NCBI GenBank assembly: GCA_043819795.1
Contig: JBDREN010000105.1
Location: forward strand, 1-54,514
DNA length: 54,514 bases
Origin: Elusimicrobiota bacterium
GTDB lineage: Bacteria; Elusimicrobiota; Elusimicrobia; UBA1565
Direction of reading: 5' to 3'
Part shown: positions 1 through 28,482 of the stretch, piece by piece
Layout: each line of letters opens with the position of its first letter
Numbering within the stretch: the stretch's first letter is position 1
Position numbers and translations under genes: made by a program
Notes under the pieces: generated by a model
The model's database searches: none
What the model saw: only the letters and a program-made list of their open reading frames with translations
What the model was told of the DNA's origin: nothing

Positions 1-950
1 TTTGATGCTCACCCCGTTCGTCGAGGCGGTGTTGTTCGCGTCCTGGTCGTCATCGTCGGCCGAAGCGCTCAGGTCCGCGCCCTCCCCGTCCACGGCCACG
101 GCCACGGGGCACGGCCCGGCCAGGCCGGAGAGTCCGTCCGCGCACTCGAAGCGCACCTCCACGTCGACGTTGCTCCAGCCTTCCAGACCCGTGCCGGGAG
201 CGCTCGAGGCCGTGATGACCGGCGGGGTCCGGTCGATTTTGATCCCCTCCAGCGTCGCCGACGCGCTGTTCCCGGCCAGGTCCGCGACCTCGCCCGATGC
301 GCTAAGGTCCGCCCCCTCGCCCTCCACGGTCTCGGAGCCGGGACAGGCTCCCTCGGCCAGGCCCGAGCCGTTGTCGGAGCAGGCGAAGCTCACCGTCACG
401 TCGCCGCTGCTCCAGCCATCCTGCCCCGTCGCTGCGGAGCGCGAGGCCGTGATGCTGGGCGCCGTCCGGTCGATCTTGATCCCCTCAAGCGTCACCGACG
501 CGACGTTTCCGGCCAGGTCGGCCACCTCGCCCGACGCGCTCAGGTCCGCGCCCTCGCCCTCCACGGTCACGTCGCCGGGGCATGCGCCTTCGGCCAGGCC
601 CGAGCCGTCGTCGGAGCACACAAACGTCACCGTCACGTCCCCGTTGCTCCACCCATCCTGGCCCGTGGCCGCCGAGCTCGACGCCGCGATGGCGGGAAGC
701 ATCCGGTCGATTTTGATCCCCTCGAGCGTCACCGACGCGCTGTTGCCGGCCAGGTCGACGACCGTGGTCGAGAAGCTCAGCTCCGCGCCCTCGCCCGCGA
801 CCGGCTGCGGGTCCGCGCACGCGGGCTCGGGCAGGCCGTGGTTGTCGGAGCACTCCAACGTGATCGCCACGTCCCCGTTGCTCCAGCCATCCTGGCCCGT
901 GCCCGGCGCGCTGGAGACCACGACGGTGGGAGGCGTCATGTCGATCGTCA
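1..950 (-). repeat. At least 4 tandem ~237-bp (79-aa) Ig-like (OmpL47-type, DxAGN-containing) domain repeats at the C-terminal end of the visible giant ORF; the array may continue beyond the window
   Basis: Minus-frame translation gives repeated units ...TAPSITASRSAATGQDGWSSGDVTVSFACSDNGSGLAEGACPG..VEGEGADLSASGEVADLAGNSASATLEGIKIDR... The plus shadow ORF 2..1033 shows the same 79-aa periodicity. Confidence 0.7.
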
Positions 951-3900
951 CGCTCGCGGAGGCCGTCCCCTTGTTGCCCGTCCGGTCCGCCATCTCGAAG
1001 GCCGCAGCGCGCTCCCCCTCCGCCATCGCGTAGGTGGTCTCGGCCGTGGGCTCGCCCTCGATGCGCTGCCCCTCCTCGCCCAGCCCGAAGAGAAGCGTCA
1101 TGCTCCCCGCGCCTTCCGCCAGCACGAAGTAGTCCCGCGGGCTCCCGTCCAGGCTCGCCGTCAAGGTGGCCGGGGCCGCCCCCGAGCCCGTATCCGAGAA
1201 GGCCAAAGCGAACTGGGGGCTGGCGACGTTCTGCAGGGCCCCGGCCGGTACCATCGCGGCCACGGCCGGCGACGTGCGGTCCACAGCGAAGAGCCCGAAG
1301 ATCGAGGCGAGCTCGCTCAGCTCGGCCGACAGGCAGCCGCTCTCCTCGTCTAAGGCCGCGCTCAGTTCCTGCCAGGCGGGCTCGGCGTAGTGGTACAAGA
1401 AAACCTCGCCCGCCGCGACGCCGTTGTCCGCCAGCACCTGCGGGTCGTAGCACATCCTCAGCGCGCCCGCCGGGTCCAAGCTCGCCCCGTGCGGCCCCAC
1501 ATCGTAGAGGCGTCCGACCGGGAACAGGTCCTGGCTGTGGCTGGCCGCCAGCAGATAGGCCCCGTCGCCCGCCGTGTCCACCGCGGAGATGGCGATCTCG
1601 AGCGCGGCGGTGAGGCTCAGCTCCGGCTTGCCGTTGACCTCGTCGGCGCTCTCGAAGGTCCCCAGCGCGTGGATCAGCGCCGTATCCGAGGCATCCTCCT
1701 TGCCGTCCGAGGCGGCCAGCTCGGCCGTGTAGGTGTCGGCCTTCTGCGGCGTGAAGCTCGGCGTCAACGTATCGGCGCCCTCGACGCTCACGGGGTCCCC
1801 GGCCGAGTCCTTGAGCGTCCAGCCGTAGCTGACCGCGTCCTCGGGGTCCTCGTCGAAGGCCGTGCCACTCAAGGCGACCAGATCCCCGACGTCGACGGTC
1901 TGGTCCGCCCCCGCGTCCACCGTGGGCGGCCTGTTCGGAGGCAGGGTGGTCGCGCCGCCCAGGTCCGTGTAAGGCGTCTCGATCCCGTCCTGGTTCCTGG
2001 CCTTCACCCGGGCGTAGTACCCCGTTTCCGGGTCGAGCCCCGTGAACGTGTGGCTCAGATCCGTGATCCAGCCGCTCTCCATCGGGCTCGCGAAGCCCGG
2101 ATCGGCCGCGAGCTGGGCGGAGTACTCCGTCCCGGGCGGGTTCCTGTTGCCGCCCCATGCCGCCGTGACGCGCTGGGAGCGGGCGTCCCGGAAGGAGTCC
2201 GGGGTCCCCTCGAAGGAGAGGACCCTCCGGTTCGAGTGGTCCGCGAACCACAGCGCCCCGCTGCCGTCGAAGGCCATCTCTCGGGGAGCGTCCAGCCTGT
2301 TTTGCGCGGTGGTGTAGATCTCGGACTGGAAGTCCGGCTGGCCCAGGACCGTCGAGGCCGGCATCCCGTTCGAGAAGGGCGGCTCGAAAACCAGGACGCG
2401 GTGATGCCCCGCGTCCACGACATACGCCTTCCCGGAGGCGTCGAAGGCCAGCGAATGGGTGTAGTACGTGTTGGTCTGTGTGGGCGCTGTTGGGAAGGGG
2501 GACGTGAAGGTCTCCTTGCCCAGCACGAGGTTCGGCTCCTCGTAGTTCCCGGATGGCGGGCTGAAGCGCAGCACCCGGAGGTGGCTTCCGTCAGCGACCC
2601 ATATGTTGCCGTCCGCGTCCACGCTCACGCCGCGGGGCTGGTAGAGGTCCTTGCCCAGATGGCGGACTCCGCTGGAGGTGAAGTCCGGCTGGCCCAGGAC
2701 CAGGTCCGCGGCCTGGTGGTCGCTGAAGGGGGGGCTGAAGCGCAGCACCCGGTTGTTCATCATGTCCGCGACCCACATTCTTCCCGAAGCGTCCACAGCG
2801 ACGCCGATCGGTCGGTTGAAGCCGCTCTGCGTGGTGGCCGCTCCGGTCGTCGTGAAGTCCGCCTGGCCCAGGACCAGCGAGGCCTCCATGTGGGTCGAGA
2901 AGGGGCGGTCGAACCGGAGCACGCGATGGTTCTCGGAGTCCGCGACCCACAGATTGCCGGCATTGTCCAGGGCGATGCCGTAGGGATTGCGGAAGGTGCG
3001 CCGATCCGTGCCCCTGCCGGTCGAGGTGAAGTCCGGCTGGCCCAGCACCAGAGAGGCGCTCTGGAGTCCTCCGGCTTGGAGCGGGTCGTAGCGCATCACC
3101 CGGTTCGAGAAGTAGTCGGACACCCAGAGGTTTCCGGATGTGTCGAAGGCCACGCCGATGGGGCCGCACATGCTCGTCTGGGTCGCCGGCTGGCCGTTGC
3201 TCACGTTGCAGTATTCCTTGGTGTTGAAATCGACCTGGCCCAGGACGAGGTCCGCGTTCTGCCCCGTCTCAAAAGACCTCGCCGGCACCGGCCGGCTGGC
3301 GAGGGTGCGCGCGCTCGCCGGGCCGGCGAAGGCGCCAGCCCCCATGGAGTTGACAGCTTGCACACGCGCGCTGTACAGCGTATCGGGGATGAAGCCGCCG
3401 TCGTCGACGCTTGTCGCATCCGTCCGGAACGTATGGACTTCACCGGTGAAGTCGGCGGAGGCCGAAACCTCGAGCGTATAAGACTGGGCGCTCGCGACCG
3501 CGTTCCAATGGAAGCCGAGCCCCCCGGCGCCCGAGGCGGAGGCGGACAGCCCGGTCGGCGCGGGGGGCGGCCCCTCGTAGATCGTGATATCGAAGGTCCT
3601 GGTGAAGATGCTGTCCTGGGCCTGGCCGTCGTCCGCCGTCACCGTGATCGTGACTGTGCCGCTGCGGCCCGCAGCCGGCTGGTAGCTCAAGGTGCGCGTG
3701 TCGCCCGAGCTCGTGATGGCCGGGTCGGGGACGATCAAGGGGTCGCTGGAAACCGCGCTGAAGCTCACCGTCTCGGGGTCGTTGTATCCCGCGAACACCC
3801 CCGTGATCGCGACCGTCGCCTCAGGGCCGTCCATGGGCGCCGCCTGGTCCGCGATCTCGTCGAAGAACGGCGGGTTGTTCACGTTCAGCACGACGATCGA

Positions 3901-12900: not shown

Positions 12901-15900
12901 GTGGCTGACCATCTGCCCGCCGAAATTACCCAAACGGAGGCTGGAGGCGTCCCCTATGTCGACGCGATAGGACGTTTCCGACTCGGACCGGATGTAGCCG
13001 TCGGTGTACGGCCCGCTGTCGCCCGACGTGGACGGCGAGGAGACCGTGACCTCCGTCTGCGTGAAGCCCTCCACCGCGCTCCCGGCCGGCTTCGCCGCCA
13101 GCGTCCACGTGTAGCTCAGGGGCTGGCCGTCCGCGTCGGTGCTCCCGCTCCCGTCCATCGTGGCCACGGCCCACTGCGGCAGCTCCACGTCCGGCCCCGC
13201 GTCCGCCACCGGCGCGTTGTTGGCCGGCCGCAGGAAGTAGCTCACGCGCCTGGAGTTCGTGTCCGCGATGGCCATGTTCCCCTGGGGGTCGAAGGCCACG
13301 CCATGGCACCCGTTCAAGCTGGCCGCGGTCGGGGGCCAGGTTTCCCCGGTGGAGGTGAAATCGGCCTTTCCGACCACGCGCGAGGCGGACATGCCGTTCG
13401 AGAACGGCGGCCTGAACTCGAGGGCGCGGCCCACGTTCTCGGCCTCCACGACCCAGAGGCTGCCTTGCGCGTCGAACCCCACGTCCCGCGGATAGCGGAA
13501 CCGGCTCGCTTTGGTGTCGGCGACACTGGAGGTGAAGTTGTCCTGGCCGATGACCAGGTCCGCGCTCATCCCGCTGGCGAAAGGCGGGGAGAAGCGCATG
13601 ACGCGCCGGTTGTCGTTCTCGGCGACCCATAGGTTCCCCTCGGAGTCGAACGCCAGGCCGCGGGGCGAGTAGAGCGTGCTCGCGGTGGTGCCGTAGCCGC
13701 CTATGATGACGTCGGCGCTCATGCCGGTGCTCAGGGGCGCCTTGAAGCGGACCACGCGGTAGTTGCCCGTATCCGCCACCCACAGGTTCCCGTCCGGGTC
13801 GACGGCCACGCCCCAGGGGCCGGAGAGCTGGTCCGGGGCCCCGCCGGCGCCCCCCCAGCCGAAGTCCGCCCTGCCGATGACCATGTCCGCGTCCATCCTG
13901 TCCGTGAAGGGGGGGGTGAACCGCAGGACGCGGTGGTCCCTGTTGTCCACCACCCAGAGCCTTCCCGTGGAGTCGAACGCCATGCCCCTCGGCCAGAAGA
14001 ACCTGTTCGCCCCGCCGTAGCCGAAGCCGCCCAGAACGAGCGAGGCGTCCATGCCCCCGGCGAGCGGAGCGTCGTAGCGCAGCACCTCGCTCTTGCCCCA
14101 GTCGCTGACCCAGAGGTTTCCGGCGCTGTCGAACGCGACGGAATACGGATTGGACGAGCCCGCGTAGCTGGCGAAGTCCGGCTGGCCCACCACCAGCCCG
14201 GCCTCCTGGCCGTTCTGGAAAGCCCCGTCCGCGGCCGGAGGCAGGGCGTTCACGGTGAGCTCCAACGTATCCTCGACCGTGCCTCCCTCCCGGCCGTCCG
14301 AGACGGTCAGCCGCACCATGTAGATGCCCGCGGAATCCGCCACGAAGGCCGCCGTGGTTTCGCCCGGCCGCTGATGGACGACCGGAGCGCTGCCCTGGGG
14401 CGCGGACGCGACCCCCCATGTCAGCGTGACGGGGTCTCCATCGGCGTCGGCGCCGCTGCCGTCGACGACCACGAGCGCTCCCCGCGTCACCGTCTGGTCC
14501 GCGCCGGCCTCCGCCGTGGGCGGAGTGTTCGGAGGCAGCGTCGTCGCGCCCCCGAGGTCCGTGAAGGGCGTCTCCTCGGCGGTCTGGCCCTTGGCTTTGA
14601 CCCGGGCGTAATAAGCCGTATCCGAATCGAGCCCCGCGAAGGCGTGGCCGGCGTCCGTGATCCATCCGCTCTCCATCGGCGCCCCCGCGAAGCCGGGGTC
14701 GGCGGAGAGCTGCGCGAGGTACTGCACGCCCGCGGGATTCCCCGCCGCCGCCCACCTCACGGTGAGGGCATGGGCATCCAGGTGCGGGAAATCGTCAAGC
14801 GCCCCGGCGAAGGCCACCAGCCGCGCGTTGTTCCAATCGGCGACCCACAGGAGCCCCTCGTGGAAGGCGATCCCTATGGGGCTGGTCATACTGGCCGGAC
14901 CGCTGCCCCAGGCCCCGGAGACGAAATCGGTCTGCCCCAGCACCGAGGTGGCCGGCATGCCGTTGAAAAGGGGCGGGTCGAAGACGAGGACGCGGTGGGT
15001 GATGTTGTCGGACAAGAATACCTTGCCGGAGGGGTCGAACGCGATCCCGAGCGGGCAGCGCATGGTCGTCTGGTTGTCGTAGTAGTTGCTGACGACGAAA
15101 TCCCCCTGCCCCAGGACCAGAGCGGCGTCCATGCCGTCGGCGAAAGGCGGGCTGAACATGAGCGCCCGGTAGTTGCCGTTGTCCGCCACCCACACGTTGC
15201 CCGACGCGTCCACCGCGACCTGGAAGGCCCAGCGCATCCTGTTTCCGGCGCGGGCCTCGCCGCCCGAGGTGAAGTCCGCCTGGCCCAGGACCAAAGAAGC
15301 GTCCATCCCGTCCGAGAAGGGGGGGGTGAACTCGAGCACCCGGTTGTTGTAGGCGTCGGCCACCCACACGTTGCCGGAGGCGTCGGCCGCCACGTCGAAG
15401 GGCTGGTTCATCCCGCTCCGGGTCGTGGCCTCGCAGCAGGCGGTGAAGTCGGGCTGGCCGAGGACGACCGACGCGTCCATGCCGGACTCGAAGGGAGGGC
15501 TGAACATGAGCACCCGATGGTTGGATCTGTCCGCGACCCATAGGTTGCCGGAGGGGTCGAAGGCGAGGCCCATGGGCATCGAAAGCCTGTCGCGGTCCCG
15601 GCCGGCGGTGGAGGACGTGAGGTCCTCCTGCCCCAGGACGATCGTGGCGGCCCGGAGGCCGTCGTGCGGCGGCGGGAACATGGTCACGCGGTTGTGCTGT
15701 CCGTCCGCCACCCAGAGGTTGCCGGAGGAATCGAACGCGATGTCGGCGGGAGTGTAGACGCTGGTCGCGCTCGGCCCGAAACGGCTGACCGTGTCCAGGC
15801 CGGCTTGCCCCAGCACGGCCGCCTCCTCCTGCCCGTCCTCGAAGCGATAGAAAGGCGCGGGGGCTTGCGCCGGCGTGTATCCGCTCGTCGGGGCGGAAAA

Positions 15901-18900
15901 GCCGCTCTGCCCGAAGGGATTGGAGGCGATGACCCGGAGGTGATACTGGGTGTCGGGGGAGAGGTAGGTGGCCTTCGCGGCGTTCGTCCGCGAAGCGTAC
16001 GACAGGACCTCTCCCGAGAACGCCGGCGAGACCGAAGCCTGGAGCGTGTAGGACTCCGCGCCGGAGGAGGCGTCCCATCGGGCCTCGAGCGACGTCGCCG
16101 AGGCGCCGACGATCTGCAGCCCGGCGGGCGTCTGCGGAGGCACGGGCGTCGCCCCGACGGCGGTGGCGAAGGCGGTGGGGACCCCGGCCGAGGACTGCGC
16201 CCGCGGATCGGTCTCGGCGCCCTCCCCGTTGACGGCCCGGACGCGGACGGAGTATTCGGTCTCTGGCTCCAATCCGTCGATCGTGGCGCTGGCGGCGGTG
16301 TGGGCGTCGTCGAAGGATATCGCCACCACGTCGTGCGCCGCGAAGCCGTCCTTCGAATAGCTCACCTCGTAGCGGGTATGGCCCGGGTTGGACGCGTCGC
16401 CCCACGAAACGGAGAGGCTGGTCAATCCGGCCGGGGCGACCGTCAAATCCGCGGGGGGGTTGGCGTGGGTGTAGGCGTGCGGGTCATCCGAGAACGGCCC
16501 GGGGACGCCGGACTGGTCGAAGCTCACCACGGACCAGTGGTAGTGGGTGTTGGGCGCGAGGCCCGGGCCCGCGTCGTTCGAGGAGCTCCCCGGGTGGGGC
16601 ACGTCCGGCTCGACGCGGGTCAGCTCGGGGTCGGTCAACGAGGCGAAGGGATGGTCCCCGGCCGCCCGGTAGACGGCGTATTTGCCGACGTTCGGCTCGG
16701 TCCGCGGGGTCCAGCTCACCGTCGCCTCGCCGGGCCCCTGGACGCTCACGCTCACGGCGGTCACGGCCTCGGGCGGAGCGGCGGCCTTGAGCGCGAAGCT
16801 CTCGGTGGCCGTCTGGCCGTCGTTGTTGGTCGCGGTGAACTCGATCCGGTTGAGCGTCTCGGAAGGCGCCAGCCCCGTGATGCCCGCGACGGTCAGATAA
16901 TGCGGGTCCTTGTCCGTCGTCCCGCCGGAGGCCGGCTCCATGCTGAGTCCGGAGTCCGGAACTTCGGCATAGTGCGCGCCCCCGTCGACGGTGTAGCGGG
17001 CCGAGAAGGCGCCGCCCGCCTCGATCGCGAAGTCCGCGAAGTCCGCGAAGTCCTGCGCGATCTCCGCGGGGCTTCGGGCCGCGCCCAGGATGCGGAAGCT
17101 GTCGACGATCCCCCAGTTCTGGGTTCCTCCCCCGGCGTTGCCGATGTAGTTCACGTCCTGCGTCAGCTTGACCGAAGAGGTGCCCACGTGGTCCGCGTCG
17201 ATGTAGAAGAGGGTCTGGCCGCCGGTGCCGACCGCCGTCAGAAGGTGCCAGCCGGACAACGGGTCGACGTCGTAGTTGCAGGAATAGAACGCCCCGCTAT
17301 AGACGCCGAGAAGGCCGTCGTTCCGGACGAGGACGTGATGGTAGTTCGGCCCGTACTGGGTCAAGGTCCGCCAGCTGCCGTGGCTGGCCAGCGGGAATCT
17401 GGTCCAGGCCTGAATGGTCCAGTCCGAGCCCATCGGGACATCGGGGACGGAGACGTAGTCGGAGGAACTGTCGAAATTCAGGGCCTTGCCGAAGAGCCCC
17501 TCGGTCCACGCCGGAGGCCCGTTGAGGCTGCCGTTCTCGCCGTTGCCGGACGCGTCCGAGACCGAGGTCCCCGTCCCTTCGTCGAACTGCCACAGGCCCC
17601 TCGTCTGCCCGGCGACGGCCCCGAGCGGAGCGCCCGTGGCGACCATGGTCTCGCTCGGACGGTCCGCGAAGTCCTCCGCGATCTCCTCGGGAGTCCGGGC
17701 CGCGTCCAGGATGCGCACGCTGTCGACGGAACCCCAATTCTGGGTTCCTCCCCCGGCGTTGCCGATGTAGTTCACGTCCTGCGTCAGCTTGACCGAAGAG
17801 GTGCCCACGTGGTCCGCGTCGATGTAGAAGAGCGTCTGGCTGCCGGTGCCCACCGCCGTCAGAAGGTGCCAGCCGGACAATGGGTCGACGTCGTAGTTGC
17901 AGGAATAGAACGCCGCGCTATAGACCCCGAGAAGGCCGTCGTTGCGCACGAGGATGTGATGATAGTTCGGCCCGTACTGGGTCAAGGTCCGCCAGCTGCC
18001 GTTGCTCGCCAGCGGGAATTTGGTCCAGGCCTGAATGGTCCATTCGGAGCCCATCGGGATGTCGGGGACGCTGACGTAGTCGGAGGAGCTGTCGAAATCC
18101 AGGGCCTTGCCGAAGAGCCCGTCCGTCCACGCCGGAGGCCCGCTGAGGCTTCCGTTCGCACCGTTGCCCGAGGAGTCCGCCGCCGAGGCCCCGCTTCCCT
18201 CGTCGAACTGCCACAGGCCTCTCGTGTGTTCGGCGACGGCCCCGAGCGGAGCGCCCGCGGCCCCCGGCGCGGTCACGGTCGCGCGCGCGTAGTCCTCGTG
18301 GATCTGCTCCGCGGTGGCGGAGTAGTTCAGGATGCGCATCTCGTCCAGGAGCCCTTCATAGTACCCGTAGTAGTAGCTGAAACCGGAGACGGCGGCCGAG
18401 GGATAGACATTCGCTCTGGGGCTGGTCAAGCCGGTCCGCACCAGGGCCCCGTTGACGTACAGGTGCGGCCGCTTGTCCGCGTAGACCACCGCGATGTGCG
18501 TCCAGCCCGAGATGGCGGCGTTGTACACGAGCAAAGAAGGGATGTATTGGTGCCCGTGCTCGAAGACGCTGATCCCGTCGGTCCCGACCGAGACCCCCGC
18601 TCCCGCGTCGGCTCCCACGAATCCTCCGTGCACCGGGGCGATCGCGTAGCGCTGTCCCGAGAGCCCGGCATAGCCGGAGGTGGATTCCGCGGTGGCGCTC
18701 CGGGTCGCGGCGGGATAGGCCCAGAACTCGATCGTGAAGTTGTTGGGGGCGCCGGTGAGCAGGCCCCCGGCTCCGGCGCAGTCGTCTATCCCGTCGAAGG
18801 AAAGGGCCTCTCCGACCTTGCCGGCGGCCCACCCCGTCCCGTTCTGGAGGGTGAAGGCCGCTCCGTTTCCGGAGGCCTCCGAGGCCGCGGTCCCGGAGCC

Positions 18901-19182
18901 CTCGTCGAAATGCCAGAGGCCCAGGGTCCCCGGGATGTTCCGGAGCCGCGCGTCCGAGAGCCTGAGCCCCACGGCGGGGTCATGGGCCGTGATCCGGGCG
19001 GAATGGCTGATTCCGGCCGGAGAAGACGGCAGCATGGCGGTGTCCGCGCTCGCCCATTGCCCATCGGAGCCCAGGACCTGGGGGGAGGAGAACTCCAGCG
19101 CGGACGCGCGCGCTCCCCAAAGCACGCTGGCCGCGACCAGGACGACCGTCGACTGCAGCTTCCAATGTCTTTCGGATTTCAT
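1..19182 (-). CDS. Giant secreted multidomain surface/adhesin-like protein, 5' end complete, 3' end runs off window start (>6,390 codons): signal peptide, 3x LamG (concanavalin A-like), FN3 domains, PKD domains, Big_9/cadherin-like domains, >=6 NHL-type beta-propellers, C-terminal tandem ~79-aa Ig-like domains
   Basis: ATG at 19182 gives MKSERHWKLQSTVVLVAASVLWGARASA (signal peptide) with an AGGGA SD-like motif upstream. No minus-strand ORF in this frame (first base = 0 mod 3) is reported anywhere between 1 and 19182, so there is no in-frame stop; the chance ORF length at this GC is ~50 codons. Spot translations at ~18780-19080, 15661-15720, 9541-9600, 7141-7200, 6421-6480, 3241-3420 and 781-1380 all give coherent domain sequence. 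Examples: LWHFDEGSGTAASEASGNG...ALSFDGIDD (LamG), NLWVADGQHNRVTMFPPP (NHL), DLAGNSASVTLEGIKID (Ig-like). The track omits it because it has no stop within the window. Confidence 0.85.
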   Translation of the reverse strand, partial: MKSERHWKLQSTVVLVAASVLWGARASALEFSSPQVLGSDGQWASADTAMLPSSPAGISHSARITAHDPAVGLRLSDARLRNIPGTLGLWHFDEGSGTAASEASGNGAAFTLQNGTGWAAGKVGEALSFDGIDDCAGAGGLLTGAPNNFTIEFWAYPAATRSATAESTSGYAGLSGQRYAIAPVHGGFVGADAGAGVSVGTDGISVFEHGHQYIPSLLVYNAAISGWTHIAVVYADKRPHLYVNGALVRTGLTSPRANVYPSAAVSGFSYYYGYYEGLLDEMRILNYSATAEQIHEDYARATVTAPGAAGAPLGAVAEHTRGLWQFDEGSGASAADSSGNGANGSLSGPPAWTDGLFGKALDFDSSSDYVSVPDIPMGSEWTIQAWTKFPLASNGSWRTLTQYGPNYHHILVRNDGLLGVYSAAFYSCNYDVDPLSGWHLLTAVGTGSQTLFYIDADHVGTSSVKLTQDVNYIGNAGGGTQNWGSVDSVRILDAARTPEEIAEDFADRPSETMVATGAPLGAVAGQTRGLWQFDEGTGTSVSDASGNGENGSLNGPPAWTEGLFGKALNFDSSSDYVSVPDVPMGSDWTIQAWTRFPLASHGSWRTLTQYGPNYHHVLVRNDGLLGVYSGAFYSCNYDVDPLSGWHLLTAVGTGGQTLFYIDADHVGTSSVKLTQDVNYIGNAGGGTQNWGIVDSFRILGAARSPAEIAQDFADFADFAIEAGGAFSARYTVDGGAHYAEVPDSGLSMEPASGGTTDKDPHYLTVAGITGLAPSETLNRIEFTATNNDGQTATESFALKAAAPPEAVTAVSVSVQGPGEATVSWTPRTEPNVGKYAVYRAAGDHPFASLTDPELTRVEPDVPHPGSSSNDAGPGLAPNTHYHWSVVSFDQSGVPGPFSDDPHAYTHANPPADLTVAPAGLTSLSVSWGDASNPGHTRYEVSYSKDGFAAHDVVAISFDDAHTAASATIDGLEPETEYSVRVRAVNGEGAETDPRAQSSAGVPTAFATAVGATPVPPQTPAGLQIVGASATSLEARWDASSGAESYTLQASVSPAFSGEVLSYASRTNAAKATYLSPDTQYHLRVIASNPFGQSGFSAPTSGYTPAQAPAPFYRFEDGQEEAAVLGQAGLDTVSRFGPSATSVYTPADIAFDSSGNLWVADGQHNRVTMFPPPHDGLRAATIVLGQEDLTSSTAGRDRDRLSMPMGLAFDPSGNLWVADRSNHRVLMFSPPFESGMDASVVLGQPDFTACCEATTRSGMNQPFDVAADASGNVWVADAYNNRVLEFTPPFSDGMDASLVLGQADFTSGGEARAGNRMRWAFQVAVDASGNVWVADNGNYRALMFSPPFADGMDAALVLGQGDFVVSNYYDNQTTMRCPLGIAFDPSGKVFLSDNITHRVLVFDPPLFNGMPATSVLGQTDFVSGAWGSGPASMTSPIGIAFHEGLLWVADWNNARLVAFAGALDDFPHLDAHALTVRWAAAGNPAGVQYLAQLSADPGFAGAPMESGWITDAGHAFAGLDSDTAYYARVKAKGQTAEETPFTDLGGATTLPPNTPPTAEAGADQTVTRGALVVVDGSGADADGDPVTLTWGVASAPQGSAPVVHQRPGETTAAFVADSAGIYMVRLTVSDGREGGTVEDTLELTVNALPPAADGAFQNGQEAGLVVGQPDFASYAGSSNPYSVAFDSAGNLWVSDWGKSEVLRYDAPLAGGMDASLVLGGFGYGGANRFFWPRGMAFDSTGRLWVVDNRDHRVLRFTPPFTDRMDADMVIGRADFGWGGAGGAPDQLSGPWGVAVDPDGNLWVADTGNYRVVRFKAPLSTGMSADVIIGGYGTTASTLYSPRGLAFDSEGNLWVAENDNRRVMRFSPPFASGMSADLVIGQDNFTSSVADTKASRFRYPRDVGFDAQGSLWVVEAENVGRALEFRPPFSNGMSASRVVGKADFTSTGETWPPTAASLNGCHGVAFDPQGNMAIADTNSRRVSYFLRPANNAPVADAGPDVELPQWAVATMDGSGSTDADGQPLSYTWTLAAKPAGSAVEGFTQTEVTVSSPSTSGDSGPYTDGYIRSESETSYRVDIGDASSLRLGNFGGQMVSHVYVGFDASFISPGASIVKATLKMYVWGGYLAEIGPAIVDLVDFGEALEFEDDSEPALVSNAATFLSEDYPAAGYHPVDVTEAVREALSSGLVPQFRIRAANEYAVGAQRLVYFSPSERSAAERPLLEITISPAWNRAQFQADAYGAYELQLTVSDGSLSSVDTAVVTAVRNDRPVADAQTAQAVRDGALPITLTASDREGAELGFAIVSPPSHGTLEGTPPNVTYLPAPGYLGADGFSFKVNDGVVDSDEAAVGISVVPLPEAPPALLAQLPPSGAAGMHGSYELAADRSGNWYVGQHSCCIMKYDIRGDLLLKWGAGGGGAGQFGTIGGMAFDSAGNVYVAGASNHRVQKFDAGGNFLMQWGAQGSGDGQFETPTGIGVDAAGNVYVLENAGQRVQKFSSGGGFLGKWSVGAGMQALGVDSTGGVFVLGGGSLLKYDSSGNQLAAWSLHGEDANGLAVDRFDRVYAAYRPVPAEDPVVRKIKRFTSDGLLSAEWRTDSDYVGNLAVDASGIVYAGHWHGEGKVVRYTAEGGLIDEFGGTSPGSLAGPSGVAVDASGNVYVADTNHNQVQKFDPAGRFVARWGREEGYSGGGDGQFNRPMDVAVDGSGNMYVVDFYNCRVQKFDAGGNFATKWGGGCGSGDTQFYLPSGIAVDAGGNVYVMDQYNNKVKKFDPNGNLLASWGAPGAGNGEFDRPERVAVDASGNIVVADTRNHRVQVFDPNGVFLSKWGVPGDRNGQLEYPAGLALDSSGNVYLTDAGNPLDPGQNNSRVQKFDAAGGLLTTWGTLGTDAGEFRYARDAAVGPDGRVYVADNENNRVQVFGAGAPPPVAHAQAVETQEDAAVAITLTGTGQGLAYTVVSGPEHGSLSGAAPNLSYTPQSGYYGFDAVVFKVSAGGVESAPAAAAIVVRNADDPPSFDAIADQASPMDGPAETVPIGGVSAGYNDPESVGMSAVSSDPSVVPHPVITGAGAVRSLSYQPAPGRSGTVTVTVTADDGRPPGDTFSRSFAITVYEAAPAAPSGLGIAGATATSLEAEWATSAGAETYTVEASVAAGFTGEVLSQLVETNRASVIGLSPDTLYYVRVKAANSGGESSFCAAASGTTSVYAPAPYYSFQTGQAAQAVLGQADASSNAAFGPSRASINSPVDMAFDASGNLWVVEMENHRILMFEPPHTGLRDATLVLGQAGFDFIDAGVSERRFWYPESIAFDPHGNLWVADRQNNRVLMFKPPFGTDMAASLVLGQDSFTTRSYVYGNDLSRMYQPAGVAADGAGNVFVADRHNSRVLLFSPPFSNGMAATRIIAHYEYVARPASLYYPNHVAVDRLGRLWVADYNHNRAVRFSPPFEDGMSADLVLGNPDLYASDYQTTRTATKKTWGIAIDPTGKVFVGDETNHRVMVFDPPLSDGMPAAAALGQADFTSGASGLGPDRLDDPRGAAFHDGTLWVADYNNRRLLAFAGTLDNFPYVNTFSLVVRWAAPGNPPGTQYLVELSDDPGFPAPLQSGWITDTSHTFPGLRKETAYHARVKAKGQMGVETTYTLLGGTTTRSDNAPPAADAGPDRTVDQGELVVVEGGGSDPDGDPVSIAGWEIVSSPGGGPVLHHRAGETAAAFVADSLGVYTLRLTVSDGREGGTDQDTVEITAHAPPAASHGAFQNGQDASVVLGAPDYAAFGSVNALRTLFDGSGNVWMSDGSKHRVLRYDAPLGTGAEPSLVLGQENLADGGSGLAADRLNSPNGMAFDPAGRLWVADSGNNRVLRFTPPFGDGMDADLVLGQAGFEANAAGSGAGELDGPRDVGFDGNGRLWLADTRNHRVLRFSPDPLQGFSSAMSAELVIGQSDFGLSGAGTTAGAMNSPRAVAFDASGDLWVSERDNHRILRFRPDPVNGFSTGMSADLVIGQDGFTSNTRYPYGPTRLSYPDAIAFDAEGSLWVAGSDHSRVFGFRPPFETGMAASRVLGRTEFNTTGCGRSQSRICEVYGVAFDRLGNLAVADTGNYRVMYFVRPPNIAPVADAGPDLELPQWAVAMVDGSGSYDAEERPISYTWSILTKPAGSAVSGFTQTENVISTPGASGPYLDGYIQFAGATPDGVNTGYTLFAGDFGGNRPVRSFMGFDVSFMPPGATVERAILKLYVSSAYDVDIGPVIVDLVDFGDTLELTDDAQPPVLAGVATFLGSAVRGGYTSLDVTAAVREALSRGLAPQFRIRATNEVSIPTQELVYIVPAEGDAAQRPRLEITVSPPVDKAQFQADAYGTYEVRLTVSDGWLSTDDTALVTAVRNDRPVADPQTAQAVQNGARQITLTGSDNEGAALAFAVVTQPSNGTLEGTPPGVTYLPALGYLGGDGFTFTVNDGVVDSVPAAVNISVVPPPESPPPFLAQIPRKAVKFSAFKIATDNAGNIYVGQNYCCVHKHDPAGNHLKTFGSFRYLGGVGVDSSGDYVYVSDRDNNRIIKYDSEGNQLLTWGSAGTGNGQFNGGPFGIDVGADGNVYVGEYAGGARIQKFDAQGQFLKSWAGGNYIQSVAVDSRNDVYATGVSMGINRFDSEGNLLASWAAPGGYPDLAVDRFSRVYVVARQGEWPYYSGVKKYSSTGQLLKEWDAFNDPATTVNDATADIHVGPSGIVYVPNYSLNTVRQWDTEGGFIEDWGGGVDGSLNAPNAVAMDSSGNIYVADTNNDRIQKFDPMGRFLAKWGKAGGGHGSGDGEFYRPIDVAVDAAGNIYVADFYNYRIQKLGPTGEFITKWGNNGSGDGQFSLPSGLAVDSANNVYVADRNNRVQKFDSNGTFLLKWGSSGTGDGQFNEPKRIAVNASGNIVVSDPRNNRVQMFDPNGTFLGKWDSYGSRKGQIKYPYGVGTDSSGNVFITEPRNPYNPSDNNARVQKFDASGSHLTEWGGYGSGQGQFIDPLDVASGAGGRICVADAGNNRVQIFGSGVSFPAAEALSVQTQENTAVALTLRGTGQAPVYSVVSGPDHGSLSGTPPNLTYTPETGYYGFDYVRFKVSDGGLESDTALASIVVLNVNNPPFFDEIADQAAPMDGPEATVAITGVFAGYNDPETVSFSAVSSDPLIVPDPAITSSGDTRTLSYQPAAGRSGTVTITVTADDGQAQDSIFTRTFDITIYEGPPPAPTGLSASASGAGGLGFHWNAVASAQSYTLEVSASADFTGEVHTFRTDATSVDDGGFIPDTLYSARVQAVNSMGAGAFAGPASARTLASRPVPARSFETGQNADLVLGQVDFNTKEYCNVSNGQPATQTSMCGPIGVAFDTSGNLWVSDYFSNRVMRYDPLQAGGLQSASLVLGQPDFTSTGRGTDRRTFRNPYGIALDNAGNLWVADSENHRVLRFDRPFSTHMEASLVLGQADFTTTGAATTQSGFNRPIGVAVDASGRMWVADMMNNRVLRFSPPFSDHQAADLVLGQPDFTSSGVRHLGKDLYQPRGVSVDADGNIWVADGSHLRVLRFSPPSGNYEEPNLVLGKETFTSPFPTAPTQTNTYYTHSLAFDASGKAYVVDAGHHRVLVFEPPFSNGMPASTVLGQPDFQSEIYTTAQNRLDAPREMAFDGSGALWFADHSNRRVLSFEGTPDSFRDARSQRVTAAWGGNRNPPGTEYSAQLAADPGFASPMESGWITDLSHTFTGLDPETGYYARVKARNQDGIETPYTDLGGATTLPPNRPPTVDAGADQTVDVGDLVALSGTAFDEDPEDAVSYGWTLKDSAGDPVSVEGADTLTPSFTPQKADTYTAELAASDGKEDASDTALIHALGTFESADEVNGKPELSLTAALEIAISAVDTAGDGAYLLAASHSQDLFPVGRLYDVGPHGASLDPAGALRMCYDPQVLADNGVAAGEVFLYHYAEPAWQELSAALDEESGCLSAELSELASIFGLFAVDRTSPAVAAMVPAGALQNVASPQFALAFSDTGSGAAPATLTASLDGSPRDYFVLAEGAGSMTLLFGLGEEGQRIEGEPTAETTYAMAEGERAAAFEMADRTGNKGTASASVTIDMTPPTVVVSSAPGTGQDGWSNGDVAITLECSDNHGLPEPACADPQPVAGEGAELSFSTTVVDLAGNSASVTLEGIKIDRMLPAIAASSSAATGQDGWSNGDVTVTFVCSDDGSGLAEGACPGDVTVEGEGADLSASGEVADLAGNVASVTLEGIKIDRTAPSITASRSAATGQDGWSSGDVTVSFACSDNGSGLAEGACPGSETVEGEGADLSASGEVADLAGNSASATLEGIKIDRTPPVITASSAPGTGLEGWSNVDVEVRFECADGLSGLAGPCPVAVAVDGEGADLSASADDDDQDANNTASTNGVSIK
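1400..16000 (-). repeat. Intragenic tandem super-repeat of the giant gene, ~6.3-kb period (~2,100 aa): two full copies (~9,700-16,000 and ~3,400-9,700) plus a partial copy (~1,400-3,400). Each unit reads FN3 - NHL propeller - FN3-like - PKD - NHL propeller - PKD - lectin-like 'DLVDFG' module - Big_9 - NHL propeller (NHRVQKFD type) - Big_9
   Basis: DNA/protein correspondences at constant offsets of ~6,280-6,360: 15860<->9575<->3290 (FN3/'APAP(F/Y)Y' junction), 14533<->8335<->1975, 14290<->8030, 12619<->6316, 12510<->6210 (~75% nt identity where compared). The antisense shadow ORFs 1390..6207 and 9064..13632 are visibly homologous. Confidence 0.75.
17027..17053 (-). repeat. 9-bp x3 perfect tandem repeat (gcgaagtcc)3 encoding DFADFADFA inside the giant gene
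   Basis: Read directly in sequence. The corresponding position in the preceding LamG copy has a single EDFAD. Confidence 0.9.
17090..18340 (-). repeat. Near-identical tandem duplication (period ~621 bp = 207 aa) giving LamG domains 2 and 3 of the giant protein
   Basis: 17111-17290 closely matches 17731-17910 (e.g. gttctgggttcctcccccggcgttgccgatgtagttcacgtcctgcgtcagcttgaccgaagaggtgcccacgtggtccgcgtcgatgtagaagag in both). The minus shadow ORFs 17297..17737 and 17918..18214 are homologous. Confidence 0.8.
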
Positions 19183-19299
19183 ATCCCTACCCCCACTGCG
19201 AATACTCCGCTTCGAACAGCGAAAGCGACCCACGCCGGCTTCGCCAGGACCTTTCCGTCCGTTGATACCGCATATCGGTTCTCCTCAATTAGGGTAGCC

Positions 19300-19390
19300 G
19301 ACATTCTGGTCCTGGTCAATGACAACGCGTTGACTAGAACGTAAGATTTAGGCTTATAAATAAGGAAGTTTTTTTATTTGTCAGCAGAAT
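19300..19390. promoter_or_regulatory. AT-rich island (ttgactagaacgtaagatttaggcttataaataaggaagtttttttatttgtcagcag) ~120-200 bp upstream of the giant gene start; candidate promoter/UP region
   Basis: The local AT-richness is striking in a ~70% GC background. TTGACT...TATAAA on plus and CTGACA...TATAAG on minus have non-ideal spacing, so no confident -35/-10 pair. Confidence 0.3.
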
Positions 19391-20989: not shown

Positions 20990-21198
20990 ATCGTCGCTTA
21001 TCTTATCAAACCTGCCGCGGGCCGCGGAAATGAGGGTGCGATGCGGGCGCCTCGTTTGAAGGGGTGCTCTGGCCCGGTCACCGACTGTATGCCACGGGCC
21101 GCTAAGCCCTGCCCGCCTCCGGCGGGCGATCCCTTGATAACTCAGCGGTGCGAGCGACCGGTCGGCGCTTCGCGCAACCGGCGCTGACCCCGCCGAAA

Positions 21199-21236
21199 GA
21201 AGAGCGCTCCCGGGCTTGGGCCCGGGAGCGCTCTTC
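21199..21236 (-). terminator. Rho-independent terminator candidate downstream of the SPFH gene: 17-bp perfect stem gaagagcgctcccgggc/gcccgggagcgctcttc, loop ttgg, then CUUCUUUCGG on the transcript
   Basis: Perfect inverted repeat read in sequence ~25 nt past the stop at 21260; U-rich tail on the minus strand. Confidence 0.6.
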
Positions 21237-21259
21237 GGAAGGCTTGGTGTCCGGTGGGC

Positions 21260-22390: not shown

Positions 22391-22457
22391 ATCCGATCCT
22401 CCTCGAAGATGCTGCCTCTATGTTGATACTTCGCGGCGCCGGTTGTCAAGGCGGATG

Positions 22458-23240
22458 TCACCCCATCCGGGCCTTCAGGGAGGCCAGCATCCTGGCGACG
22501 GCCCCGTTCGAGGGGTCGAGCTCGTGGGCCTTCTCCAGGTTCTGGCGGGCGAGCTTGAGCTGGCCGAGGTGCTTCAGGAGCAGCCCCAGGCGGATGTAGA
22601 CCTTCGGCTCCTGCAGGCCGAAGTCGCGGGCCGCGCGGTACATCTTGACGGCGTTCTCCGCCTGGCGGGCGCGCTCGAGGGTCTCGGCGGAGAGGAAGTA
22701 GATGTGCTTGAGGTGGTCCTTGACGGCGAGCTCCTTGGCCTTCTGGAGCGTGCGCAGGGCCTCGCGCAGATGGTCTTCGCCCCGGGCCGAACGGGAGCGC
22801 GCGGCCCCGTTGTAGATGTGAAGGAGGCTGAGGGCCTCCTTCATCTTCGGGTTGAGCTTAACGGCCCGCTCCGCGTGCTGCTTGACGCACATGTTCGTCC
22901 AGCCGCGCCAGAGGGCGTAGTTCATCGCCTGCAGGTACTGCACCTCCCCCGAGATCGGGGCGTGCTCCGCCGCCTTGCGCAGGTGCTCGGCGGCCTCCTT
23001 GTGGAGCTTGCGCTTCACGTAATAGGCGGCCATGCCGAAATGGGCGTCGGGGTCATCGGGGTCCTCCCGGAGCTTCTTCTTGAACTCCAAGAATGCGCGG
23101 TCGAGCTGCGGCTTGCCGGCGCGCAGCAGGCCGAGCCCGCCCAGCCCGTGGACGATGGCGGCCCCGCAGAACTCGCAATGATCGACGTCCGACGAGTTCG
23201 GAGCCCCGCAGGCCGTGCAGCGGTCGGGATGCGCGCTCAT
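22458..23240 (-). CDS. N-terminal zinc-ribbon + TPR-repeat protein; start ATG overlaps the stop of the upstream Tim44-like gene (ATGA)
   Basis: MSAHPDRCTACGAPNSSDVDHCEFCGAAIV... then TPR-like helical repeats (…AAYYVKRKLHKEAAEHLRKAAE…YIRLGLLLKHLGQLKLARQNLEKAHELDP). It is the 3' part of track ORF 22458..25259, whose upstream part is out-of-frame junk. Confidence 0.65.
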   Translation of the reverse strand: MSAHPDRCTACGAPNSSDVDHCEFCGAAIVHGLGGLGLLRAGKPQLDRAFLEFKKKLREDPDDPDAHFGMAAYYVKRKLHKEAAEHLRKAAEHAPISGEVQYLQAMNYALWRGWTNMCVKQHAERAVKLNPKMKEALSLLHIYNGAARSRSARGEDHLREALRTLQKAKELAVKDHLKHIYFLSAETLERARQAENAVKMYRAARDFGLQEPKVYIRLGLLLKHLGQLKLARQNLEKAHELDPSNGAVARMLASLKARMG

Positions 23241-28475: not shown

Positions 28476-28482
28476 AAGAAAC

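What the first reader, a model, noticed from the sequence alone, without database searches (positions are those of the whole stretch)
1..19182. More than 19 kb single open reading frame: a giant secreted adhesin-like protein absent from the six-frame track
One minus-strand frame stays open for more than 6,390 codons, from a clear signal-peptide start at 19182 to the window edge. The chance ORF length at this GC is ~50 codons. The track omits it because it has no stop inside the window; the long Arg/Gly-rich plus-strand ORFs are its antisense shadows. The domain mosaic is unusually large and modular for a bacterial protein: LamG x3, FN3, PKD, Big_9, many NHL propellers, tandem Ig-like domains. 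The C-terminus, and any sorting signal, lies off-window.
Basis: partly seen in the sequence, partly recalled or inferred. Interest (0 to 1): 0.8.

Follow-up and report, generated by a model that had tools for sequence, protein, structure and literature searches.

The report
Giant secreted propeller-and-Ig protein, truncated
The 19-kb open reading frame is a real gene of an uncultured Elusimicrobiota bacterium; it encodes at least 6,394 residues of an exported protein built only from binding-type domains, which is a typical, not exceptional, example of the giant surface proteins already known to be common in this group.

Summary
The minus-strand frame has no stop from 19284 to base 1. An ATG at 19182 opens 6,394 codons (668 kDa, pI 4.5). 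GC3 is 0.88-0.93 throughout, so it is coding. The long plus-strand ORFs are its codon-aligned antisense shadows.

The window is a whole 54,514-bp contig of an NCBI Elusimicrobiota MAG. The gene is therefore cut by the contig end, inside a 237-nt tandem repeat, and no public relative supplies the C-terminus.

The anatomy, in order:
- a Sec-type signal peptide (A-S-A|L)
- three LamG domains and two FN3 domains
- 2.3 copies of a ~2,095-aa super-module (FN3, NHL propeller, FN3, PKD, NHL propeller, PKD, DNRLRE/CBM96-like, Big_9, two NHL propellers, two Big_9)
- at least five tandem Ig-like domains

That gives nine six-bladed NHL propellers. No catalytic, RHS, RTX or transmembrane element was found.

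The AlphaFold tail model matches extender rods of giant adhesins (MpIBP, SiiE, an Aeromonas RTX adhesin, GhpA). My best reading is an exported, probably C-terminally anchored, multivalent glycan- or cell-binding fibre.

Relatives lack the gene at the syntenic site. No ortholog of the N-terminal part was found among 1.84 billion representative proteins. It is a new member of a known kind, of moderate-to-low interest.

The parts
1..19182 (-). Giant CDS. ATG at 19182, 6,394 codons, no stop. Truncated at base 1, which is the end of the contig. The partial product is 667.8 kDa with pI 4.47.
   Evidence: The contig-end status comes: neighbouring proteins are 100% identical to NCBI MAG proteins whose only contig is 54,514 bp.
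19099..19182 (-). Sec/SPI-type signal peptide, aa 1-28. It has a basic n-region (K2, R5, K8), a hydrophobic core TVVLVAASVLWGA, and an A-S-A|L cleavage motif. It has no Cys lipobox and no twin-arginine motif.
   Evidence: Sequence and hydropathy. No other hydrophobic 19-mer (Kyte-Doolittle mean >1.8) occurs in the 6,394 aa. SignalP was not available.
17056..18927 (-). Three Laminin_G_3 (ConA-like lectin fold) domains, at about aa 86-311, 364-502 and 571-709. The second and third are a recent tandem duplicate: 80-86% aa identity, 93% nt identity over 300 nt.
   Evidence: Pfam 119 bits against a cutoff of 27.6; 3 stretches; family D16.
16195..16848 (-). N-terminal FN3 pair, about aa 779-996.
   Evidence: fn3 69 bits, 2 stretches; PDB fibronectin and contactin FN3 matches.
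9859..16137 (-). Super-module A, aa 1016-3108:
- FN3, 1018-1100
- six-bladed NHL propeller with 58-aa blades, ~1110-1465
- FN3, ~1495-1550
- PKD, 1552-1644
- NHL propeller, ~1650-1985
- PKD-like, 1988-2055
- DNRLRE/CBM96-like, 2058-2223
- Big_9, 2265-2349
- two NHL propellers with ~47-aa blades, 2378-2632 and 2633-2914
- Big_9 x2, 2921-3108
   Evidence: AlphaFold model of aa 1096-1511 (pTM 0.81, six four-stranded blades). Fold matches to Thin and TRIM71 NHL domains, TM 0.86-0.88.
3571..9858 (-). Super-module B, aa 3109-5204. It is colinear with A over 2,060 aligned codons at 57% aa identity.
   Evidence: (DNA families D12, D17, D18 and D20 with ~6.3-kb spacing).
1681..3570 (-). Partial super-module C, aa 5205-5834: FN3, one NHL propeller, FN3, PKD. 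It is 46% identical to A and 43% identical to B.
1279..1680 (-). Unassigned segment of ~134 aa (aa 5835-5968). It has no family match and no homologs among the tail hits.
   Evidence: 0 families; no coverage by hits; the modelled part has low pLDDT.
1..1275 (-). Ig-like rod: one divergent beta-sandwich domain (aa ~5970-6080) followed by four tandem 79-aa repeats (aa 6082-6394). The repeats have a 237-nt period, two Cys each, and the motif IDRTxPxI...GWSNGDVTVxFxCSD..SGL. The array runs into the contig end.
   Evidence: D13, D19; TRF: period 237, 3.6 copies, 79% matches; model pLDDT 86, all-beta.
19187..19273 (-). 28-codon upstream ORF (MRYQRTERSWRSRRGSLSLFEAEYSQWG*). GAGGAG lies 7 nt before its ATG, and its TAG stop lies 4 nt before the giant ATG. 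An AT-rich stretch (72% AT, 19336-19385) sits further upstream. It is a possible leader or translational-coupling element. Function unknown.
   Evidence: No consensus sigma-70 promoter was found on the minus strand.
1354..19341 (+). Three long plus-strand ORFs (1354-6204, 9049-13629, 15544-19341). They are codon-aligned antisense shadows of the giant CDS, not genes.

Best explanation
This is a real chromosomal gene of an Elusimicrobiota MAG. It encodes a giant acidic multidomain protein of more than 6,394 aa that is exported through Sec by a cleavable signal peptide.

Everything visible is a binding or spacer module:
- three lectin-fold LamG domains sit at the N-terminal tip
- nine six-bladed NHL beta-propellers and two DNRLRE/CBM96-like modules are strung between FN3, PKD and Big_9 spacers
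- a rod of tandem Ig-like domains leads toward the missing C-terminus

The body arose by duplication of a ~2,095-aa super-module (2.3 copies, 43-57% identical).

The most likely mechanism is as follows. After export the protein is held at the cell surface by a C-terminal anchor or sorting element that lies beyond the contig end. The Ig-like rod acts as the proximal extender. The propeller and LamG part projects outward as a multivalent binder of glycans or of other cells' surfaces.

Shown: the ORF, its coding character, the domain content and folds, the signal-peptide features, the internal duplication, and the absence at the syntenic site in relatives.

Inferred: export beyond the periplasm, C-terminal anchoring, polarity, and the ligands.
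For: - The frame is open and coding along its whole length.
- The N-terminus is Sec-type, and there is no other hydrophobic segment.
- Pfam and NCBIfam find only LamG, FN3, PKD, Big_9, NHL/SGL/SBBP and DNRLRE/CBM96-like domains. No catalytic, RHS, RTX or SecA domain appears.
- The closest solved relatives of the propellers are ligand-binding NHL domains: TRIM71, Thin, Brat, the PknD sensor domain and a teneurin-like protein. The model shows six blades.
- The tail model is a chain of beta-sandwich domains. Its best structural matches include extender regions of giant adhesins: 6xi1/6xi3 (an Aeromonas RTX adhesin), 4p99 (MpIBP), 2yn3 (SiiE) and 9flw/9flv/9g8b (GhpA grappling hook).
- Modules A and B stay colinear over 2,060 codons, with dN 0.34 below dS 0.63 and no frame disruption. 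Both copies are therefore maintained.
- The low pI (4.5) and the paired Cys in each tail repeat fit an extracellular protein.
- The literature reports giant, mostly adhesion-type proteins as frequent in Elusimicrobia and neighbouring phyla (PMC11573180; PMC12057145; bioRxiv 10.1101/2023.11.21.568195).
Against: - The C-terminus is missing, so no anchor, sorting signal, toxin or enzyme domain can be excluded.
- No secretion-system genes lie in the 35 kb of flanking sequence. The route across the outer membrane is therefore unknown, and a periplasmic or released protein is possible.
- There is no expression or protein evidence.
- NHL/SGL-type propellers can be enzymes (PAL, lactonases, virginiamycin B lyase all appear among the weaker hits). 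A 'binding only' reading is therefore not proven.
- The signal peptide was judged by eye and hydropathy, not by a trained predictor.
- A ~134-aa segment (aa 5835-5968) is unassigned.
Confidence: 0.62

Rival explanations
1. The protein is the delivery arm of a polymorphic toxin, of teneurin-like or RHS type. In this reading the visible 6,394 aa form the targeting and presentation part, and the unassembled C-terminus carries a YD/RHS shell with a toxin domain.
For: - The closest homologs of the LamG units include RHS proteins. P0244 has LamG x3, PA14 and RHS_repeat. P0243 (7,481 aa) has visible YD repeats and an RHS-core-like C-terminal region (by inspection).
- NHL propellers occur in teneurin-like proteins (9ifo, 9pt5).
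Against: - There is no RHS_repeat or YD motif anywhere in the 6,394 aa.
- The other top LamG homologs (P0241, P0242) have no RHS, so the LamG unit is promiscuous.
- No immunity-like small gene can be assessed, because the 3' flank is missing.
Confidence: 0.12
2. The protein is a released extracellular scaffold or enzyme rather than a cell-anchored adhesin. The propellers (NHL/SGL family) would act catalytically as lyases or lactonases, or the protein would organise polysaccharide degradation in a cellulosome-like way.
For: - There are weak family hits to SGL/gluconolactonase, Vgb_lyase, Phytase-like, PhoX and PAL.
- A DNRLRE/CBM96-like carbohydrate-binding-type module is present in each full super-module.
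- The literature proposes catabolic roles for some large proteins of related phyla (PMC12057145).
Against: - All the 'enzyme' hits are secondary matches lying under the NHL repeat signal. The strongest matches are to non-catalytic NHL domains.
- No glycoside hydrolase, polysaccharide lyase, peptidase or dockerin/cohesin domain was found.
- Nine tandem propellers separated by Ig spacers fit multivalent binding better than catalysis.
Confidence: 0.12
3. The protein is a type I-secreted RTX adhesin of the LapA, MpIBP or SiiE class.
For: The tail model matches extender regions of RTX adhesins structurally. The protein is also giant, acidic and repetitive.
Against: - A classical cleavable Sec signal peptide is present, which T1SS substrates lack.
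- GGxGxD occurs only once, so there is no RTX array.
- No ABC transporter, MFP or TolC gene lies in the window.
- Sequence identity to those adhesins is only 11-16%.
Confidence: 0.03
4. The ORF is an assembly artefact, either a chimera of several loci or collapsed repeats, or it is a decaying pseudogene rather than one functional gene.
For: The contig ends inside a tandem repeat. The contig comes from a short-read-style MAG. The giant protein itself is absent from the protein collections that hold its neighbours.
Against: - There is no stop in 6,394 codons, and GC3 is uniform across the ORF.
- GC content matches the rest of the contig.
- The longest exact internal repeat is 77-98 nt and is confined to the LamG2/LamG3 pair. 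Everything else is about 30 nt or less.
- The super-modules are only 57% identical at the protein level (60-80% at the nucleotide level) and perfectly colinear.
Confidence: 0.04

Closest known systems
Huge or giant multidomain surface proteins of Elusimicrobia, Omnitrophota and related phyla (PMC11573180; bioRxiv 10.1101/2023.11.21.568195; PMC12057145)
   Same: It is over 5,000 aa and comes from a phylum reported to be enriched in such proteins. It is a mosaic of adhesion and carbohydrate-binding-type domains. Like the ~6,000-aa Menyafoubacter protein, it has a Sec signal peptide and no transmembrane helices. It is fragmented by assembly.
   Different: - It lacks the many transmembrane regions and the SecA-DEAD domain described for full-length Omnitrophota giants.
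- It lacks the CASH/PL6/RHS content of the Menyafoubacter protein.
- Its body is a 2.3-fold repeat of a 2,095-aa super-module rich in NHL propellers.
- The exhaustive search of 1.84 billion representatives with the first 1,100 aa returned no protein with a matching N-terminal architecture.
Extender regions of giant adhesins: MpIBP (4p99), an Aeromonas RTX adhesin (6xi1/6xi3), SiiE (2yn3), and GhpA, the grappling hook of Aureispira (9flw/9flv; bioRxiv 10.1101/2024.01.29.577165)
   Same: The tail is a rod of tandem ~80-100-aa beta-sandwich domains. The protein is giant and acidic, and its presumed role is to reach out and bind.
   Different: - Sequence identity is only 11-16%.
- The RTX adhesins use T1SS with no signal peptide, and they carry their ligand-binding domains at the C-terminal end.
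- Here a Sec signal peptide is present, and the presumed binding modules are N-terminal to the rod.
- The tail repeats carry a Cys pair each. No calcium-binding motif was searched for in them.
Six-bladed NHL beta-propellers (Pfam PF01436): TRIM71/Lin41, Thin, Brat, the PknD extracellular sensor, ScyF, and bacterial teneurin-like protein
   Same: Sequence matches are strong (E 1e-61 to TRIM71). The predicted fold has TM 0.86-0.88 to Thin and TRIM71. The NCBIfam ScyF NHL model scores 415 bits in summed hits.
   Different: - There are nine propellers in one chain.
- Five of them use unusually long 58-aa blades with a conserved PPF..GM.A..VLGQ.DF insert between blades.
- No kinase, TRIM, scytonemin-pathway or YD-shell context is present.
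LamG (Laminin_G_3)-headed large secreted proteins, including RHS toxins such as P0243 and P0244
   Same: The LamG subtype is the same, at 43-54% identity to the units here. The units are tandemly repeated at or near the N-terminus of very large secreted proteins.
   Different: Homology is limited to the LamG units. The rest of the architecture is unrelated.

Membership tests
NHL repeat beta-propeller (Pfam PF01436) | Repeat matches above the Pfam gathering score. | tested here: met
   374 and 419 bits against a cutoff of 20, with 12 + 15 stretches in the two halves. About 50 blade motifs were located.
NHL repeat beta-propeller (Pfam PF01436) | Six four-stranded blades forming a closed propeller. 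| tested here: met
   The AlphaFold model of aa 1096-1511 has pTM 0.81 and six blades. Foldseek gives TM 0.86-0.88 to the Thin and TRIM71 NHL domains. This was tested for one of the nine propellers. The others are inferred from alignment.
Laminin_G_3 / ConA-like lectin domain (PF13385) | Match above the gathering score. | tested here: met
   119 bits against a cutoff of 27.6, with 3 stretches. Individual pieces score 30.8, 60.1 and 54.4 bits.
fn3, PKD/K319L-like_PKD and Big_9 spacer domains | Matches above the gathering scores. | tested here: met
   fn3 scores 116.6 against 25, K319L-like_PKD 50-65 against 27, and Big_9 87-91 against 23.6.
DNRLRE domain (NF033679) / CBM96 (PF24517) | Match above the curated cutoff. 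| tested here: inconclusive
   The NCBIfam score is 34.3 against a cutoff of 34. Pfam CBM96 scores 26.8 against 26 when the piece is scanned alone, but 19.4 in the whole half-protein. The match is marginal. The segment is 62% conserved between modules A and B.
T1SS RTX adhesins (LapA, MpIBP, SiiE class) | No cleavable N-terminal Sec signal peptide. | tested here: not met
   A classical n-h-c signal peptide with A-S-A|L is present.
T1SS RTX adhesins (LapA, MpIBP, SiiE class) | A C-terminal block of RTX nonapeptide (GGxGxD) repeats and an adjacent T1SS operon. | tested here: not met
   GGxGxD occurs once in 6,394 aa. No ABC, MFP or TolC gene is in the window. The true C-terminus and the 3' flank are missing, so this holds only for what is assembled.
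RHS/YD polymorphic toxins and teneurin-like proteins | YD/RHS repeat shell and a C-terminal toxin. | tested here: not met
   There is no RHS_repeat hit and no YxYDxxG motif in the assembled part. The C-terminus cannot be tested.
Omnitrophota-type giant proteins (bioRxiv 10.1101/2023.11.21.568195) | Numerous transmembrane regions and a divergent SecA DEAD helicase domain. | tested here: not met
   No 19-residue window has a Kyte-Doolittle mean above 1.8, and the only clearly hydrophobic stretch seen is the signal-peptide core (11-residue window). No SecA family appears among the Pfam hits.
Type V autotransporters, PEP-CTERM, T9SS-CTD or other C-terminally sorted surface proteins | A C-terminal beta-barrel or sorting domain. 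| not testable with these tools
   The contig ends at base 1 inside the Ig-repeat array. No extending sequence or close relative was found in the genome or metagenome collections.
Named bacterial Ig families for the tail (Big_13, Big_3_3, Big_3_2, HYR, 'PxKF-domain' proteins) | Match above the gathering score. | tested here: not met
   Big_3_3 scores 22.6 against 27, Big_13 22 against 27, and Big_3_2 17.5 against 23.3. No NCBIfam PxKF hit was found. Homologs at 34-45% identity do carry those families, and the fold is an Ig-like beta-sandwich.
'Huge proteins' (>5,000 aa; PMC11573180) | Length over 5,000 aa. | tested here: met
   At least 6,394 aa.

The most novel reading that the evidence does not exclude
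The protein may be a C-terminally anchored capture fibre, functionally like the GhpA grappling hooks of Aureispira or the adhesive giants proposed for predatory Omnitrophota. A free-living, high-GC Elusimicrobiota lineage would use it to seize other cells. The nine NHL propellers and three LamG heads would act as a multivalent, rapidly diversifying recognition array, and the 2,095-aa super-module would be the unit of length and specificity evolution. This would imply a contact-dependent predatory or epibiotic lifestyle in this lineage.
Probability: 0.1. Interest if true: 0.65.

Novelty: new member of a known kind. Interest (0 to 1): 0.3.

Why it matters
If the reading is right, this adds one more example of the giant, binding-only surface proteins that seem characteristic of Elusimicrobiota and neighbouring phyla, whose functions are untested.

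Its particular value is as a clean case of hierarchical repeat evolution:
- blades build propellers
- propellers build a 2,095-aa super-module
- the super-module is itself repeated 2.3 times

The gene is also lineage-specific at a conserved syntenic site, which fits a fast-evolving interaction gene. It gives defined modules that could be expressed for ligand screening: the LamG head, the 58-aa-blade NHL propeller and the DNRLRE-like domain.

It does not open a new category, and it does not settle what such proteins do.

Tried and rejected
**Extending the contig**
- An exact 60-mer from the window start found nothing in genome contigs or metagenome contigs.
- An exact look-up of DnaK in the contig index failed.
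- The window later proved to be the complete 54,514-bp contig.

**Finding the protein or its orthologs**
- A 600-aa tail query returned only repeat-level homologs at 45% identity or less, all 1,050 aa or shorter. The protein itself was not returned, although its neighbours are in that collection.
- An exhaustive representative search with aa 1-1100 gave only hits centred on the LamG or FN3 units.
- A degenerate-pattern scan of GTDB genomes with the A/B alignment of aa 1988-2380 gave no confirmed relative.
- The same kind of scan of JGI metagenomes with aa 5700-6394 gave no confirmed relative.

**Synteny**
- Two related lineages have a Ser/Thr kinase, not a giant gene, after SLT/LysM.

**Motif and family searches**
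- Motif searches for RTX, LPXTG and YD were negative, apart from a single GGxGxD match.
- The Rfam and tRNA scans of the window were empty.
- The consensus promoter and terminator scan upstream found nothing on the gene's strand.
- A PDB sequence search of the tail gave no hit.

**Considered and rejected**
- RTX adhesin, because a signal peptide is present.
- Omnitrophota-type giant, because there are no transmembrane regions and no SecA domain.
- Misassembly, because there are no long exact repeats.
- Recent foreign acquisition from a donor of different GC, because GC and GC3 match the neighbours.

One call was a malformed pattern and carries no information.
Full report
**1. The observation**

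The ATG at 19182 starts a run of 6,394 codons without a stop.

From base composition alone (GC 67.6%), a stop is expected about every 45 codons. The probability of none in 6,394 codons is about 1e-62. That null is too lenient in this window, because non-coding frames here stay open for up to 1,617 codons.

The real proof of coding is codon-position composition. GC1/GC2/GC3 is 0.64/0.52/0.91, and GC3 is 0.88-0.93 in every 500-codon block. The other genes of the window show the same signature.

The three long plus-strand ORFs (1354-6204, 9049-13629, 15544-19341) are codon-aligned with the gene. They have the mirrored composition (GC1 about 0.9) and are rich in Arg, Val, Gly and Ala. They exist because the gene uses TTA, CTA or TCA only 7 times.

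**2. Where the sequence comes from**

DnaK (42310-44205) and the SLT/LysM protein (19586-20989) are 100% identical to NCBI proteins MFH1724612.1 and MFH1724592.1. Both are annotated 'MAG... [Elusimicrobiota bacterium]', and their only contig is 54,514 bp long, which is exactly the window length. All the best-named DnaK relatives (up to 88% identity) are Elusimicrobiota.

The window is therefore a complete contig, and the ORF is truncated by the end of the assembly, not by the choice of window. The break lies inside a tandem array with a 237-nt period (3.6 copies, 79% matches, positions 56-911), a typical place for a short-read assembly to stop.

The rest of the contig is ordinary chromosome:
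- an SPFH/zinc-ribbon protein, a Tim44-like protein, an S46 peptidase and a Yip1 protein
- cysS and a SpoU methylase
- a small LamG-PKD-collagen protein, a DsbA-like protein and an S8 subtilase
- hrcA-grpE-dnaK-dnaJ, rsmE, dnaG-rpoD and a Wzy_C protein

No secretion-system genes are present.

**3. Anatomy of the protein**

The partial product is 667.8 kDa with pI 4.47.

The N-terminus, MKSERHWKLQS-TVVLVAASVLWGA-RASA|LE, has the basic, hydrophobic and A-x-A layout of a Sec/SPI signal peptide. It has no lipobox Cys and no twin arginine. No other hydrophobic segment exists in the chain.

Pfam scans of the halves and of 17 sub-pieces, NCBIfam, self-comparison and a blade-motif scan give this map:
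- **N-terminal part:** three Laminin_G_3 domains (aa ~86-311, 364-502, 571-709). The last two are 80-86% identical. Two FN3 domains follow (~779-996).
- **Super-module A (aa 1016-3108):** in order, FN3; an NHL propeller with 58-aa blades; FN3; PKD; a second such propeller; a PKD-like domain; a DNRLRE/CBM96-like domain (a marginal match); Big_9; two canonical NHL propellers (~47-aa blades); and two Big_9 domains.
- **Super-module B (aa 3109-5204):** colinear with A over 2,060 codons at 57% identity.
- **Partial super-module C (aa 5205-5834):** FN3, propeller, FN3, PKD. It is 43-46% identical to A and B.
- **Unassigned segment:** ~134 aa (5835-5968).
- **Tail:** one divergent beta-sandwich domain (~5970-6080), then four 79-aa tandem repeats with two Cys each, running into the contig end.

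In total the chain has nine six-bladed propellers and roughly 25 Ig-like spacer domains.

**4. Structure checks**

An AlphaFold model of propeller A1 was built on the five paralogous copies. It has pTM 0.81 and shows six four-stranded blades. Foldseek places it with the NHL domains of Thin and TRIM71 (TM 0.86-0.88), PknD, and teneurin-like protein. Sequence search of the PDB agrees.

A model of aa 5940-6394 was built on 39 homologs. It has pLDDT 86 and is a chain of five beta-sandwich domains. Its best structural matches include the extender regions of giant adhesins: an Aeromonas RTX adhesin (6xi1/6xi3), MpIBP (4p99), SiiE (2yn3) and the Aureispira grappling hook GhpA (9flw/9flv/9g8b). Generic Ig/MG-domain chains also match.

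By sequence, the tail repeats fall below threshold for every Pfam Ig family.

**5. Is it one real gene?**

The evidence says yes.
- Composition is uniform and matches the flanks.
- The longest exact internal repeat is 77-98 nt and is confined to the LamG2/LamG3 pair. All others are about 30 nt or less. Repeat-driven chimerism of the super-modules is therefore implausible.
- Modules A and B have diverged (dN 0.34, dS 0.63 by Nei-Gojobori) without a single frame disruption over 2,060 codons. The dS value is certainly underestimated, given the extreme codon bias. Both copies have been kept under selection.

What cannot be excluded without reads is a miscount of the LamG or tail repeats.

**6. Relatives**

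No ortholog was found. An exhaustive HMMER search of 1.84 billion representative proteins with aa 1-1100 gave thousands of hits. The best share only the LamG units (43-54% identity), inside otherwise unrelated large proteins. Examples are P0244 (LamG x3 + PA14 + RHS), P0243 (7,481 aa, with YD repeats), P0241 and P0242.

The tail finds only repeat-level homologs at 45% identity or less. Pattern scans of GTDB genomes and JGI metagenomes with module- and tail-specific queries found no confirmed relative. These scans have limited sensitivity.

In two related Elusimicrobiota lineages the block Yip1-Tim44-SPFH/DZR-SLT/LysM is conserved. There it is followed by a 690-aa Ser/Thr kinase and then, in both, by radA, MMPL, mlaC, mlaA and alr, with ispDF before radA in L001/L002 and dnaB after alr in L003/L004. 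No giant gene is present. The gene is thus lineage-specific at this position.

**7. How it most likely works**

- **Shown:** an exported-type N-terminus; a chain made only of ligand-binding and spacer folds; an adhesin-like Ig rod toward the C-terminus; no catalytic, RHS, RTX, SecA or transmembrane element in the assembled 6,394 aa.
- **Inferred:** after Sec export the protein reaches the cell surface and is retained by a C-terminal element that is not assembled. The Ig rod then acts as the cell-proximal extender. The LamG heads, nine propellers and DNRLRE-like modules form a distal, multivalent binder for glycans or foreign cell surfaces. This polarity is the reverse of RTX adhesins. I put about 0.6 on this picture.
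- **Rivals:** a polymorphic-toxin arm with an unassembled RHS/toxin end (about 0.12); a released enzyme or scaffold (about 0.12); a T1SS RTX adhesin (about 0.03, contradicted by the signal peptide and the lack of RTX repeats); and an artefact or pseudogene (about 0.04).

**8. Comparison with what is known, and novelty**

Proteins over 5,000 aa are reported to be especially frequent in Elusimicrobia (PMC11573180). Giant genes are described as common in Omnitrophota, Elusimicrobia and CG03 (PMC12057145, citing bioRxiv 10.1101/2023.11.21.568195), where they are mostly interpreted as adhesion or cell-wall-attack devices.

This protein fits that class. It does not have the defining transmembrane regions and SecA domain of the Omnitrophota giants, and it is not an RTX adhesin or an RHS toxin as far as assembled.

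Three things are particular to it:
- the 2,095-aa super-module repeated 2.3 times
- nine NHL propellers, five of them with long 58-aa blades
- the absence of orthologs

It is a new member of a known kind. Interest is moderate to low (0.3).

The most novel reading not excluded is a grappling-hook-like capture fibre implying a predatory or epibiotic lifestyle. I give it about 0.1 probability.

Noticed in passing
window 19187-19273 (-), with the upstream AT-rich stretch 19336-19385: A 28-codon upstream ORF (MRYQRTERSWRSRRGSLSLFEAEYSQWG*) has a strong GAGGAG Shine-Dalgarno sequence 7 nt before its ATG. Its TAG stop lies 4 nt before the giant gene's ATG, so it is a possible leader peptide or translational-coupling element. 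A 72%-AT stretch lies just upstream, in an otherwise 68%-GC contig.
   Followed up: partly
window 19586-25222 compared with loci L001-L004: Related Elusimicrobiota conserve the block Yip1-Tim44-SPFH/DZR-SLT/LysM. After SLT/LysM they carry a 690-aa Ser/Thr kinase (followed by radA, MMPL and mlaC/mlaA among other genes) where this contig has the giant gene. This is a synteny break, or a lineage-specific insertion.
   Followed up: yes
window 33502-34890 (-): A 462-aa protein combines Laminin_G_3, PKD and a collagen triple-helix repeat. Its LamG domain is 24-29% identical to the giant protein's LamG units. It may be a small secreted relative built from the same module types.
   Followed up: partly
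window 17041-17340 versus 17662-17961: The LamG2 and LamG3 coding regions are 93% identical over 300 nt and share an exact repeat of 77-98 nt. This is by far the most recent duplication in the gene, and the only place where short-read assembly could have miscounted copies.
   Followed up: partly
whole window, and protein collection behaviour: The neighbours of the giant gene are in the public protein collection (MFH1724592.1, MFH1724612.1), but the giant partial protein itself was not returned by either protein search. All 120 hits of the word-indexed search were 1,050 aa or shorter, which suggests that very long proteins are under-represented in that index.
   Followed up: no
window 28001-30000 and 34001-36000: There are two local GC dips (0.61-0.62, against about 0.68 elsewhere). 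The first lies around a stretch (27400-29100) with few convincing ORFs between the S46 peptidase and the Yip1 gene. Neither was examined.
   Followed up: no
window 36039-38072 (-): A DsbA-like thioredoxin gene sits next to an S8 subtilase gene. A similar DsbA-like gene lies about 10 kb from SLT/LysM in locus L002 of a relative. A possible link to maturation of Cys-containing exported proteins, such as the tail repeats, is speculation only.
   Followed up: no
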